From IMG/VR virus record IMGVR_UViG_2645727555_000008: a DNA stretch of 4,883 nt, one strand, 5' to 3'. The stretch comes from a virus. Its lineage: Duplodnaviria; Heunggongvirae; Uroviricota; Caudoviricetes. The notes below the pieces were generated by a model. It searched no databases. It was not told the DNA's origin and saw only the letters and a program-made list of their open reading frames with translations. The number at the start of each line of letters is the position of its first letter. Position 1 is the first letter of the stretch. This document shows positions 2,236 to 2,959 of the stretch, piece by piece. The position numbers and the translations under genes were made by a program.

Positions 2236-2448
2236 TTAGTGTATTTTCTTCAACAGACCCCAAAGTGTTCCGGCTTTTGTAGTCAGTTTTCCTGTTTCTG
2301 GATCGTACATACGCCATTCACGCCGCTGGTGGACGATATACCCATCTTCACGTTCCAGACGCTCAAGAATGCCAGGCTGCTTGAAACCCTTAGCACGCCA
2401 GTATCCGCTTGTTTTCTCGATTTCCAGACCTGCCAGTGTTAATGCCAT
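2236..2448 (-). CDS. Hypothetical 70-aa mildly basic protein
   Basis: ATG at 2446-2448 (revcomp) preceded by GGAGG 7 nt upstream; its ATG overlaps the TAA stop of the upstream 111-aa ORF (TAATG), implying translational coupling. Preferred over the opposite-strand ORF 2203..2442. Confidence 0.55.
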   Translation of the reverse strand: MALTLAGLEIEKTSGYWRAKGFKQPGILERLEREDGYIVHQRREWRMYDPETGKLTTKAGTLWGLLKKIH

Positions 2449-2783
2449 TATCCAACCTCCTTGCAGTCATCGAAAAGGTAGCTTTGCTGAGAAGCGTGAA
2501 CGCCATAGAAGCCCTTGTATTTGTTGTATACGAAGTGGTCTTCTCCGACGCCGGTTAATTTGCCATTACGGTTTGTGAGATATGGGGATGACAATACTCG
2601 ATCGTCACGCACAACATAGAACTGGTCGCCGCTGTCTACGACCATCGCTCCATATGGTGCTTTTATGACGTCGGTAAGAGCGCCATTCTTAACGTCGGCT
2701 ACAGACATTTCGCACTGATAAACAGTGGTGTCGGCCACAACGATCGAAGAAAGGAACAACAGCGCGAATGGGATGGCCTTCAT
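2448..2783 (-). CDS. Hypothetical 111-aa secreted protein (N-terminal signal peptide)
   Basis: N-terminus MKAIPFALLFLSSIVVA has a short n-region, hydrophobic core and VVA-type cleavage site; SD AGAGGTGG 6 nt upstream; start overlaps the stop of the upstream 59-aa ORF (ATGA). Confidence 0.65.
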   Translation of the reverse strand: MKAIPFALLFLSSIVVADTTVYQCEMSVADVKNGALTDVIKAPYGAMVVDSGDQFYVVRDDRVLSSPYLTNRNGKLTGVGEDHFVYNKYKGFYGVHASQQSYLFDDCKEVG

Positions 2784-2959
2784 GCTGCCACCTCTTTGAT
2801 TACATCAAATGCTGAATTAAATACGAGCACGATAGCCAAAGCGTTTATGACTACGTCGTTCACCGGGGAAAAGACTTTACGAATGACACCGGTGAAAATG
2901 CAGTCGATGACAAAAGCTATTGAAACGATGAGTAACAAGTATTCAATAAAAATCTTCAT
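2780..2959 (-). CDS. Hypothetical 59-aa hydrophobic membrane peptide
   Basis: Not in the ORF track (under 60 aa). Manual translation: MKIFIEYLLLIVSIAFVIDCIFTGVIRKVFSPVNDVVINALAIVLVFNSAFDVIKEVAA, with two hydrophobic stretches. Its TGA overlaps the ATG of the 111-aa ORF. No strong SD. Confidence 0.4.
   Translation of the reverse strand: MKIFIEYLLLIVSIAFVIDCIFTGVIRKVFSPVNDVVINALAIVLVFNSAFDVIKEVAA

What the first reader, a model, noticed from the sequence alone, without database searches (positions are those of the whole stretch)
2236..2959. Translationally coupled trio: 59-aa membrane peptide, 111-aa secreted protein, 70-aa basic protein
The three ORFs overlap stop-on-start (ATGA at 2780-2783, TAATG at 2446-2450) and the last two have strong ribosome-binding sites, implying fixed stoichiometry. 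The mix of membrane, exported and cytoplasmic basic components is reminiscent of small exclusion, toxin-immunity or envelope-targeting modules, but I recognise none of them. The 59-aa ORF is absent from the ORF track.
Basis: partly seen in the sequence, partly recalled or inferred. Interest (0 to 1): 0.55.

Follow-up and report, generated by a model that had tools for sequence, protein, structure and literature searches.

The report
Conserved, normally silent phage-plasmid three-gene operon
Three small overlapping genes (a membrane peptide, an exported beta-barrel protein and a P1 'Cra'-like protein) are a real, conserved and separately regulated operon of SSU5-type phage-plasmids, including Yersinia pestis pMT1; it is silent in ordinary lysogens and switched on inside macrophages, and its function is still unknown.

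Summary
On the minus strand, ORFs of 59, 111 and 70 aa overlap stop-on-start (ATGA, TAATG), and the last two have strong ribosome-binding sites. The window is the replication region of an SSU5-type phage-plasmid, bracketed by IS91-family ends. All three ORFs are under purifying selection (dN/dS about 0.25, 0.10 and 0.04). Their order and overlaps persist in relatives down to 18-45% identity. About 800 plasmids carry them, including pMT1. The trio is not indivisible. The 70-aa protein is P1 Cra, which occurs alone in about 640 P1-like plasmids. The exported protein occurs without Cra in a lambdoid phage. New here: the trio has its own promoter, overlapped by a 21-bp palindrome, one of about 22 operator-like sites upstream of genes that are silent in lysogens. 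Published RNA-seq of phage-plasmid Cyrano shows the three genes at the detection floor in LB and raised about 40-80-fold inside macrophages, with a sharp step from the gene upstream. The exported protein models as a disulfide-closed small beta-barrel. Cra matches no known fold. Best reading, unproven: a two-part envelope module made on derepression (Imm/Sp-like exclusion is the leading guess), plus a separable cytoplasmic Cra.

The parts
2969..2997 (-). Promoter-like site for the trio: -35 TTTACA (2997-2992), 17-nt spacer, -10 TAGTAT (2974-2969)
   Evidence: Consensus scan. The -35/-10 arrangement is conserved in the E. coli, SSU5, pMT1, Enterobacter, Klebsiella and Cronobacter types. RNA-seq steps up from CYRAN_59 (log2 about 5.0) to CYRAN_60 (about 8.6) in macrophages, which fits a promoter here. 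The transcription start site was not mapped.
2960..2980 (-). 21-bp imperfect palindrome ATAAGTTAGTATCTACCTATC (operator-like). It overlaps the -10 and abuts the ATG of the 59-aa ORF.
   Evidence: Conserved in all 9 diverged loci. It scores 26.3 bits with a weight matrix built only from other sites. It belongs to about 22 dispersed intergenic sites in pECAZ155_2 and in Cyrano: 40 strand-hits against 1.6 expected. The binding protein is unknown.
2780..2959 (-). 59-aa hydrophobic peptide (phrog_2535), a predicted two-helix membrane hairpin with a central F/I-[RK]-[KR]-x-x-x-P loop. No Shine-Dalgarno site; possibly translated from a leaderless or near-leaderless mRNA.
   Evidence: ORF. PHROG E=1.4e-31. 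dN/dS 0.23-0.33. Homologues of 49-59 aa occupy the same position in all lineages. Hydropathy. RNA present. Translation itself is not shown.
2788..2795 (-). Shine-Dalgarno AGAGGTGG for the 111-aa ORF, inside the end of the 59-aa ORF
   Evidence: Sequence
2448..2783 (-). 111-aa exported protein (phrog_2077): signal peptide residues 1-17 (2783-2733), mature 94 aa, acidic (pI 4.9), with conserved Cys24 and Cys107. Predicted small closed beta-barrel.
2455..2462 (-). Shine-Dalgarno AAGGAGGT for the 70-aa ORF, inside the end of the 111-aa ORF
   Evidence: Sequence; conserved in most lineages
2236..2448 (-). 70-aa basic cytoplasmic protein of the Cra family (phrog_804; P1 'Cre-associated' protein), with motif LE[IL]EKxxGYWRAKGF
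2204..2227 (-). Terminator-like hairpin (9-bp stem, 6 G-C pairs) 9 nt after the 70-aa stop, followed by TATTTCATAG. The downstream iteron array of the RepA replicon starts just beyond it.
   Evidence: Scan and inverted repeat I2. Different hairpins occupy the same position in the other lineages.

Best explanation
The three ORFs form a separately transcribed accessory operon of SSU5-group phage-plasmids that is normally switched off. It consists of two functional parts. Transcription starts at a sigma-70-type promoter whose -10 and start region lie inside a 21-bp palindrome. That palindrome is one of about 22 operator-like sites upstream of phage genes that are silent in lysogens. I infer that a phage-plasmid DNA-binding regulator, most simply the lysogeny repressor, sits on these sites. 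When the promoter fires, the mRNA probably begins within a few bases of the AUG of the first gene. That gene encodes a two-helix inner-membrane peptide whose positively charged loop is predicted to face the cytoplasm. The next two genes are translated from strong internal ribosome-binding sites. The second product is exported through Sec and cleaved after Ala17. It folds in the periplasm into a 94-residue beta-barrel, probably closed by a Cys24-Cys107 disulfide. The peptide and the barrel are always inherited together and evolve fast. I infer that they work together at the inner membrane and periplasm once the element is derepressed, either early after induction or infection, or under intracellular stress. 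Their most likely job is to alter or guard the envelope, for example by blocking entry of further phage DNA, in the way T4 uses the membrane protein Imm and the periplasmic protein Sp. The third product, Cra, is a slowly evolving cytoplasmic protein shared with phage P1. It is a separable module of unknown, possibly regulatory or nucleic-acid-binding, function. Shown: gene reality, conservation, co-transcription, silence in LB and induction in macrophages, and the separability of Cra. Inferred: the start site, the role of the palindrome, the topology, the disulfide, a peptide-barrel interaction, and the exclusion function.
For: Reality and linkage: purifying selection on all three ORFs. The order small TM peptide, exported protein, Cra-like protein, with stop/start overlaps of 4/1, 4/1, 1/1 and 4/26 nt, is kept in the E. 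coli, SSU5, pMT1, Enterobacter, Klebsiella, Cronobacter, Serratia, K. variicola and metagenomic lineages. The 111-aa and 59-aa proteins have near-identical distributions, 811 and 767 plasmids with the same genera. The trio stays beside repA in Klebsiella elements that lack the upstream SPFH, DUF7238 and 91-aa genes.
Own regulated unit: promoter and terminator predictions. The palindrome is conserved in every lineage and strongly over-represented genome-wide, 40 hits against 1.6 expected. In Cyrano, all 22 sites lie upstream of main-strand genes that are near the floor in LB, and no LB-expressed gene has one.
Published RNA-seq (PMC9928086 S1 Table), as log2(FPKM+5): CYRAN_60/61/62 are 2.3/2.5/3.7 in LB, 7.0/6.2/7.2 in macrophages at 1 h and 8.6/8.4/8.9 at 6 h. 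They rank 2nd, 5th and 9th of 123 genes for induction. The upstream CYRAN_58/59 stay at 4.1/5.0, and most structural and replication genes are flat.
Envelope location: signal peptide, two conserved Cys, barrel model, and hydropathy with loop charges.
Early-accessory character: a distant homologue of the barrel protein lies in the early operon of a lambdoid phage, between the immunity/replication region and RecT/Gam. It is followed by an unrelated 39-aa TM peptide that overlaps its stop codon.
Cra is separable: it stands alone in P1 next to cre, and about 640 P1-like plasmids and 21 phage records carry it without the other two.
Confidence: 0.4

Rival explanations
1. An indivisible three-protein system. 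Membrane peptide, exported protein and basic protein act as one complex in fixed ratios, for example a toxin-immunity or exclusion machine in which the cytoplasmic protein is the third subunit or its dedicated regulator.
For: Overlapping junctions are conserved in all SSU5-group lineages. The three RNAs rise together in macrophages. All three are present in about 770-810 plasmids.
Against: Cra occurs alone in P1-like elements. The barrel protein occurs without Cra in a lambdoid phage. The ribosome-binding sites are very unequal. Cra RNA is about 8-fold above the other two in condition B6. dN/dS differs about 5-10-fold between Cra and the other two. No PADLOC or toxin-antitoxin family hit was found.
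Confidence: 0.1
2. A host-adaptive, stress-induced envelope module. The peptide and periplasmic barrel are made when the bacterium is under intracellular stress (acid, oxidative or SOS), and they protect or remodel the envelope to the host's benefit. This would be conditional lysogenic conversion, independent of the lytic cycle.
For: The trio is among the most strongly induced Cyrano genes inside macrophages, while virions are not produced and most lytic genes stay flat. The neighbouring membrane-protein/SPFH operon is induced as well. The module is carried by plasmids of intracellular or invasive pathogens, namely AIEC LF82, Y. pestis pMT1 and Salmonella.
Against: The S. Typhi pHCM2 lineage, an intracellular pathogen, has destroyed the pair by deletion. 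The promoter carries the same palindrome as silent structural and replication promoters. A distant homologue sits in a lambdoid early operon. No phenotype data exist.
Confidence: 0.2
3. A periplasmic inhibitor of a cell-wall hydrolase. The barrel would be a lysozyme or peptidase inhibitor of the MliC/PliC type, anchored or assisted by the peptide. It would either neutralise the tail-associated wall-degrading enzymes of incoming phages or restrain the element's own lysis enzymes.
Confidence: 0.1
4. A membrane-toxin or lysis-timing module. The hydrophobic peptide would be a holin-like or type-I-toxin-like membrane-damaging peptide, kept silent in lysogens, and the exported protein would modulate it.
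For: The peptide is small and very hydrophobic (GRAVY 1.55). It is strictly silent in LB lysogens and induced together with the KacT and HicAB toxin-antitoxin modules in macrophages.
Against: Cyrano has a complete, separate lysis cassette of holin, endolysin, Rz and Rz1. The toxin-antitoxin modules, unlike the trio, are highly expressed in LB. Rfam and antisense RNA were not examined here. Constant pairing with an exported barrel is not a feature of known type I toxins (from memory).
Confidence: 0.1

Closest known systems
Phage P1 Cra ('Cre-associated' protein, ORF1 upstream of cre; phrog_804)
   Same: The 70-aa protein is a true homologue: 43% identity over 62 residues, a shared LE[IL]EKxxGYWRAKGF motif, similar length (70 against 73 aa), and a family restricted to phage-plasmids.
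   Different: In P1 it stands alone directly upstream of cre, with the cre promoters inside it. Here it is the last gene of a three-gene operon next to the RepA iterons, far from any recombinase. No function is known for either.
T4 superinfection exclusion proteins Imm (small inner-membrane protein) and Sp (small periplasmic protein); comparison from memory
   Same: Both have a small multi-helix inner-membrane protein plus a periplasmic protein of about 95-100 residues, made by the phage when the lytic programme or derepression starts. This is the closest functional analogy for the 59-aa/111-aa pair.
   Different: There is no sequence or fold relation. The PHROG hits are to families of unknown function, and T4 Sp, as I recall, is helical rather than a beta-barrel. 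In T4 the two genes are not adjacent. Exclusion has not been tested here.
MliC/PliC/ACP/PhiA periplasmic lysozyme inhibitors
   Different: No profile match. The fold similarity is no better than to unrelated barrels.
Dispersed repressor operators of phage-plasmid P1 (C1 operators) and mycobacteriophage L5 'stoperators' (from memory; the P1 operators are also visible in the annotation)
   Same: Many copies of one short site are scattered through a large temperate phage genome in front of silent genes. One such site sits on the trio's promoter.
   Different: The site here is a 21-bp palindrome, whereas those of P1 and L5 are asymmetric. It also precedes structural operons. The binding protein and its effect are unknown, and none of these sites is present in the P1 loci examined.
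Uncharacterised phage 'lipoprotein'/secreted barrel proteins (Erwinia jumbo phages Huxley, Kwan and Joad, Pectobacterium phage Possum, Xanthomonas phage DIBBI)
   Same: Best viral structural matches to the 111-aa model: Foldseek E from 7e-7 to about 1e-3, with TM-score (normalised to the query) from about 0.5 to 0.74.
   Different: 14-26% identity, none characterised, and some are lipoproteins. The 111-aa protein has no lipobox.

Membership tests
Cra family (P1 Cra, phrog_804) | Significant sequence similarity to P1 Cra or the family profile over the full length | tested here: met
   phrog_804 E=6.5e-34 over residues 1-70. tblastn to P1 Cra gives 43.5% identity, E=1e-4. A profile search joins the SSU5-type and P1-type proteins.
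Cra family (P1 Cra, phrog_804) | Location immediately upstream of a cre-type recombinase gene ('Cre-associated') | tested here: not met
   Here and in all SSU5-group loci the gene lies between the 111-aa gene and the repA iterons. The only integrase of pECAZ155_2 is about 16 kb away. The name describes P1 gene order, not a function.
MliC/PliC lysozyme inhibitors | Match to the family profile (Pfam MliC) or to solved members by sequence | tested here: not met
   No Pfam family for the window protein at E<=1, and no MliC hit in any of 14 family members at E<=10. No PDB relative by phmmer or by profile.
MliC/PliC lysozyme inhibitors | Exported 8-stranded antiparallel beta-barrel of about 90 residues | tested here: inconclusive
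MliC/PliC lysozyme inhibitors | Inhibition of c-type lysozyme | not testable with these tools
   Needs a biochemical assay.
Sec/signal-peptidase-I exported proteins | N-terminal positive residue, hydrophobic core, small residues at -3/-1, no lipobox Cys at +1 | tested here: met
   MK-AIPFALLFLSSIV-VA|D in the window. The same layout, with an Ala invariant in the 12 closest members, appears across the family alignments. This is by inspection only; no dedicated predictor was available.
Superinfection-exclusion systems (T4 Imm/Sp, P1 Sim, lambdoid SieB/Cor, T5 Llp) | Homology to a known exclusion protein | tested here: not met
   The only PHROG matches are families of unknown function. No Pfam or NCBIfam hits.
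Superinfection-exclusion systems (T4 Imm/Sp, P1 Sim, lambdoid SieB/Cor, T5 Llp) | Expression reduces infection by the same or other phages | not testable with these tools
   No experimental data were found in the searchable literature.
Known anti-phage defence or toxin-antitoxin systems | Match to a PADLOC-DB model or a toxin/antitoxin family | tested here: not met
   No PADLOC hit for any of the three proteins or their neighbours at E<=0.1. No Pfam or NCBIfam toxin families.
Constitutively expressed prophage 'morons' (lysogenic conversion genes) | Transcribed well above prophage background in the uninduced lysogen | tested here: not met
   CYRAN_60-62 are at or near the detection floor in LB and are not among the 13 Cyrano morons listed in PMC9928086.

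The most novel reading that the evidence does not exclude
The peptide and the periplasmic barrel would be a previously unrecognised two-component envelope system of enterobacterial phage-plasmids. It would be switched on specifically inside host cells, from a promoter guarded by a genome-wide palindromic operator, and it would change bacterial envelope properties during intracellular life in AIEC, Y. pestis (pMT1) and Salmonella. Cra would be a phage-plasmid-specific regulator, shared with P1, that links this response to the lysogeny or plasmid-maintenance circuitry.
Probability: 0.12. Interest if true: 0.7.

Novelty: new variant of a known kind. Interest (0 to 1): 0.42.

Why it matters
These three genes sit on hundreds of clinically relevant plasmids: SSU5-type phage-plasmids of E. 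coli, Klebsiella, Enterobacter and Salmonella, and pMT1 of Yersinia pestis. They have always been labelled 'hypothetical', and the first gene is often missing from plasmid gene tables. This work shows that they form a discrete operon that is tightly shut off, that they are among the most strongly induced phage-plasmid genes inside macrophages, and that they belong to a class of promoters marked by one dispersed palindrome. That gives concrete handles: a candidate operator, a candidate envelope pair and a separable Cra. The handles apply to two open problems. One is how SSU5-type phage-plasmids control lysogeny. The other is what P1 Cra, unexplained since the cre region was first sequenced, actually does. 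If the pair is an exclusion or envelope-protection device, it would be a new protein family for that role.

Tried and rejected
- Family searches. Pfam, NCBIfam and PADLOC scans of all three proteins and their neighbours gave nothing for the trio. Scanning every member of both family alignments at E<=10 showed no family shared by more than two members.
- PDB sequence searches with single sequences and with profiles gave only noise.
- Exhaustive profile search with the 111-aa alignment found only 27 representatives among 1.84 billion proteins, all the same small family.
- Literature. There is no functional statement on Cra beyond 'putative'. The P1 genome paper and the 2026 phage-plasmid heteroresistance preprint are not held. 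Nothing was found on SSU5 repressors or operators.
- Idea tested and rejected: that carrying a palindrome predicts induction in macrophages. It does not (p=0.26).
- Idea rejected: that the pHCM2 'fusion' protein is a Rosetta-stone link between peptide and barrel. It is a 206-bp deletion between 12-bp direct repeats (GGCGCGATGGTT) that removes the signal peptide, Cys24 and two strands.
- Idea rejected: that chromosomal copies of the 70-aa gene show it living alone. One is a decayed integrated element with remnants of all three genes, and the other carries the whole segment.
- The 62-kb E. albertii plasmids are deleted phage-plasmids, so they do not separate the trio from the phage.
- By eye, no LexA box is present at the promoter.
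- The search for related loci failed with the divergent alignment, and P0081 returned no loci.

Full report
WHAT THE WINDOW IS. Bases 88-4794 are 98-99% identical to the replication region of SSU5-type phage-plasmids of E. coli, which are about 110 kb. Examples are pECAZ155_2 and phages PhiR41_1, CMS-2020a and Cyrano. Identity to Salmonella phage SSU5 is 75% across the trio. The region holds a Rep3/RepB-type RepA flanked by iteron arrays. On the other strand lie an SPFH lipoprotein gene, a DUF7238 gene, an acidic 91-aa gene and then the three ORFs of the finding. The two window ends (2-100 and 4785-4883) are inverted copies of the end of an IS91-family element found in several copies on ETEC-type plasmids. 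So the window is a 4.7-kb replicon fragment bracketed by IS91-family ends.

CHECK OF THE OBSERVATION. The ORFs and overlaps are exactly as described. The 111-aa and 70-aa ORFs are preceded by AGAGGTGG and AAGGAGGT. The 59-aa ORF has no Shine-Dalgarno sequence. The peptide has two hydrophobic stretches separated by R27-K28. The 111-aa protein has a typical Sec signal sequence ending VVA|D and exactly two cysteines. The 70-aa protein has pI 9.6. All three ORFs are under purifying selection. With synonymous sites close to saturation, dN/dS is about 0.23-0.33 for the peptide, about 0.10 for the exported protein and 0.03-0.06 for the 70-aa protein. The 59-aa ORF is therefore a real gene, although several plasmid gene tables omit it.

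IS IT A CONSERVED TRIO? Within the SSU5 supergroup, yes. All 12 SSU5-like phage records carry all three genes. Among 72,556 plasmids, the 111-aa protein is found in 811 and the peptide in 767, with the same genus breakdown. The SSU5-type 70-aa protein (>=60% identity) is found in 787. These include 63 Yersinia pestis pMT1 records and S. Typhi pHCM2. The order small TM peptide, exported protein, 70-aa protein, with overlapping junctions next to a convergent rep gene, persists in much more distant elements from Serratia, K. variicola and metagenomes. There the three proteins are only 18-30%, 29-33% and 44-67% identical to the window's. In Klebsiella elements the upstream SPFH, DUF7238 and 91-aa genes are absent, but the trio remains.

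Beyond that group the trio falls apart. The 70-aa protein is a homologue of P1 Cra (43% identity, phrog_804). In P1-like phages and about 640 P1-like plasmids it occurs alone, directly upstream of cre. A distant member of the exported-protein family (phrog_2077, E=2e-11) lies in the early accessory operon of a lambdoid phage, between the immunity/replication region and RecT/Gam. It has no Cra, and it is followed by an unrelated 39-aa single-TM peptide that overlaps its stop codon. So the peptide and the exported protein look like a pair, and Cra looks like a separable module.

REGULATION (NEW HERE). A promoter-like site (TTTACA, 17 nt, TAGTAT at 2997-2969) lies between the 91-aa gene and the peptide. 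A hairpin terminator follows the 70-aa stop. The 21 bp that run from the -10 to the ATG, ATAAGTTAGTATCTACCTATC, are better conserved than the coding sequence in all nine lineages. In the six closer lineages they abut the ATG, which suggests a leaderless or near-leaderless mRNA. In the three distant lineages a 10-13-nt leader with a Shine-Dalgarno site follows.

The sequence is an imperfect palindrome belonging to a dispersed family with consensus ATA[AG]GTAAGTA-N-TACTTAC[CT]TAT. In pECAZ155_2 there are 40 strand-hits at >=12 bits against 1.6 expected, and 11 at >=18 bits against none expected. A matrix built without the trio's site still scores it at 26.3 bits. The same matrix finds sites at syntenic promoter positions in every SSU5-group locus and none in the P1 loci.

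In Cyrano there are 22 sites. Of these, 21 lie 11-144 nt upstream of the start of a main-strand gene, and one has no annotated gene within 200 nt. The genes include structural, lysis, replication, nucleotide-metabolism, parB and SPFH-operon genes as well as the trio. Every one of them is near the floor in LB, and none of the LB-expressed genes has a site. The simplest reading is a global operator, comparable to the dispersed C1 operators of P1. An RNA-level role as an intercistronic hairpin is not excluded.

EXPRESSION DATA FROM THE LITERATURE. In PMC9928086 (AIEC strain LF82, whose plasmid is the phage-plasmid Cyrano), CYRAN_60, 61 and 62 are the three genes, 98-100% identical to the window's. 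[quoted passage not shown] In the paper's S1 Table, as log2(FPKM+5) means, they are 2.3/2.5/3.7 in LB, 4.3/4.7/5.4 and 3.3/3.1/6.3 in medium at 1 h and 6 h, and 7.0/6.2/7.2 and 8.6/8.4/8.9 inside macrophages at 1 h and 6 h. They rank 2nd, 5th and 9th of 123 Cyrano genes for induction. The genes just upstream stay low (CYRAN_58 at 4.1, CYRAN_59 at 5.0). RepA is constant, and most structural and DNA-metabolism genes barely move. The paper detected no Cyrano virions in macrophages, although ciprofloxacin induces Cyrano 39-fold.

These data show three things. The trio is a transcription unit of its own. It is off in ordinary lysogens. It responds early or selectively to intracellular stress. Having a palindrome does not by itself predict induction (p=0.26), so something distinguishes this promoter and that of the SPFH operon. 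The higher Cra RNA in condition B6 argues against strictly equal expression.

MOST LIKELY MECHANISM AND RIVALS. I favour a repressed accessory operon with two parts. The first is an inner-membrane peptide and a periplasmic disulfide-bonded barrel acting together at the envelope once the element is derepressed. The second is a separable cytoplasmic Cra. For the pair, the closest analogy is T4 Imm plus Sp (superinfection exclusion). That function is inferred only from location, timing, fast evolution and the early-operon context of a distant homologue. I put about 0.3 on that specific function and about 0.8 on the architecture and regulation. The module is dispensable for plasmid maintenance. 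pHCM2-type plasmids have a 206-bp deletion between 12-bp repeats that fuses the peptide's first helix to a truncated barrel, and a chromosomal copy in E. coli is decayed.

VERDICT. The genes are catalogued as hypothetical proteins in many records. What is new is the operon definition, the palindromic regulon and the link to macrophage-induced expression. Interest is moderate.

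Noticed in passing
window 2960-2980; pECAZ155_2 (L021-L023) and Cyrano (L038-L040) genome-wide: A 21-bp palindrome (about ATAAGTAAGTA-N-TACTTACTTAT) occurs at about 22 intergenic sites of SSU5-type phage-plasmids. Almost all lie 11-144 nt upstream of genes that are silent in lysogens. It is absent from the P1 loci. It looks like the operator set of a global regulator, and I found no description of it in the searchable literature.
   Followed up: partly
window 2-100 and 4785-4883: The window ends are 99-nt inverted repeats (97% complementary), identical to the sequence just downstream of IS91-family transposase genes on ETEC-type E. 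coli plasmids (up to 8 copies per plasmid, none on chromosomes). The phage-plasmid fragment therefore lies between two inverted IS91-family ends. Matches to intact phage-plasmids cover only window 88-4795.
   Followed up: partly
window 82-240 (- strand): The 52-aa ORF matches only positions 1-51 of the 214-residue phrog_2105 profile. It appears to be the start of the 214-aa gene next to repA in intact elements (called 'ASCH RNA-binding domain protein' in Cyrano), cut off near the IS91-family end.
   Followed up: no
L009/L010 (pHCM2-type Salmonella plasmids), protein P0016: A 206-bp deletion between 12-bp direct repeats (GGCGCGATGGTT) fuses residues 1-34 of the peptide in frame to residues 45-111 of the exported protein. 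It is indexed in 3,534 blocks of the assembly collection, mostly on 50-200-kb contigs. The adjacent Cra has a 3-aa deletion (LERLEREDG to LEREDG).
   Followed up: yes
L007 (E. coli chromosome CP043541.1, about 5.19-5.21 Mb): A segment with the 91-aa gene, the trio and Rep lies between purH/purD and an OapA-like gene on a chromosome record. It could be a real integration of the replicon fragment or an assembly join.
   Followed up: no
L004 (E. coli chromosome CP125919.1): A decayed integrated SSU5-like element. The peptide ORF is intact, the exported-protein gene is frameshifted, Cra is 61% identical, and RepA and RecA are fragmented.
   Followed up: partly
Cyrano RNA-seq, CYRAN_62 against CYRAN_60/61 (window 2236-2448 against 2448-2959): After 6 h in medium alone, Cra RNA is about 8-fold higher than that of the two upstream genes (log2 6.3 against 3.1-3.3). 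This suggests an internal promoter or a more stable 3' fragment. No promoter-like site was found inside the 111-aa gene.
   Followed up: no
Cyrano CYRAN_56/57 = window 3847-4677 plus the cut-off small ORF at 4681-4776: The small membrane protein and SPFH lipoprotein operon, which also has a palindrome upstream, is induced in macrophages as well (log2 2.3 to 7.7 and 3.7 to 7.3). The DUF7238 and 91-aa genes between it and the trio are not.
   Followed up: partly
proteins P0091, P0097-P0116; plasmid hits H159, H162, H163: NCBI names many P1-type Cra proteins 'creatininase'. This appears to be a propagated mis-expansion of the gene symbol cra for a 70-aa protein.
   Followed up: no
L027/L030 (IMG/VR lambdoid-type contigs), 2501-2976: A distant homologue of the exported barrel (118 aa) is followed, with a 1-nt stop/start overlap, by an unrelated 39-aa single-TM peptide, within an early operon that also holds RecT and a Mu Gam-like gene. 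A second, independent pairing of this barrel with a small membrane peptide.
   Followed up: partly
window 2999-3274 and 3330-3755 (- strand): The two genes upstream of the trio encode very acidic proteins: 91 aa with pI 4.15 and charge -14, and a 141-aa DUF7238 protein with pI 4.5 and charge -13. The 91-aa protein has a conserved DDDGVCWxxGxCWY motif. Both are of unknown function. In SSU5 and pMT1 the 91-aa gene has its own palindrome.
   Followed up: no
L005, L006, L008, L020 (E. coli and Enterobacter phage-plasmids): The RecA-like recombinase gene upstream of the SPFH operon carries an intein with a LAGLIDADG endonuclease in some elements (779 aa) but not in others (about 358 aa).
   Followed up: no
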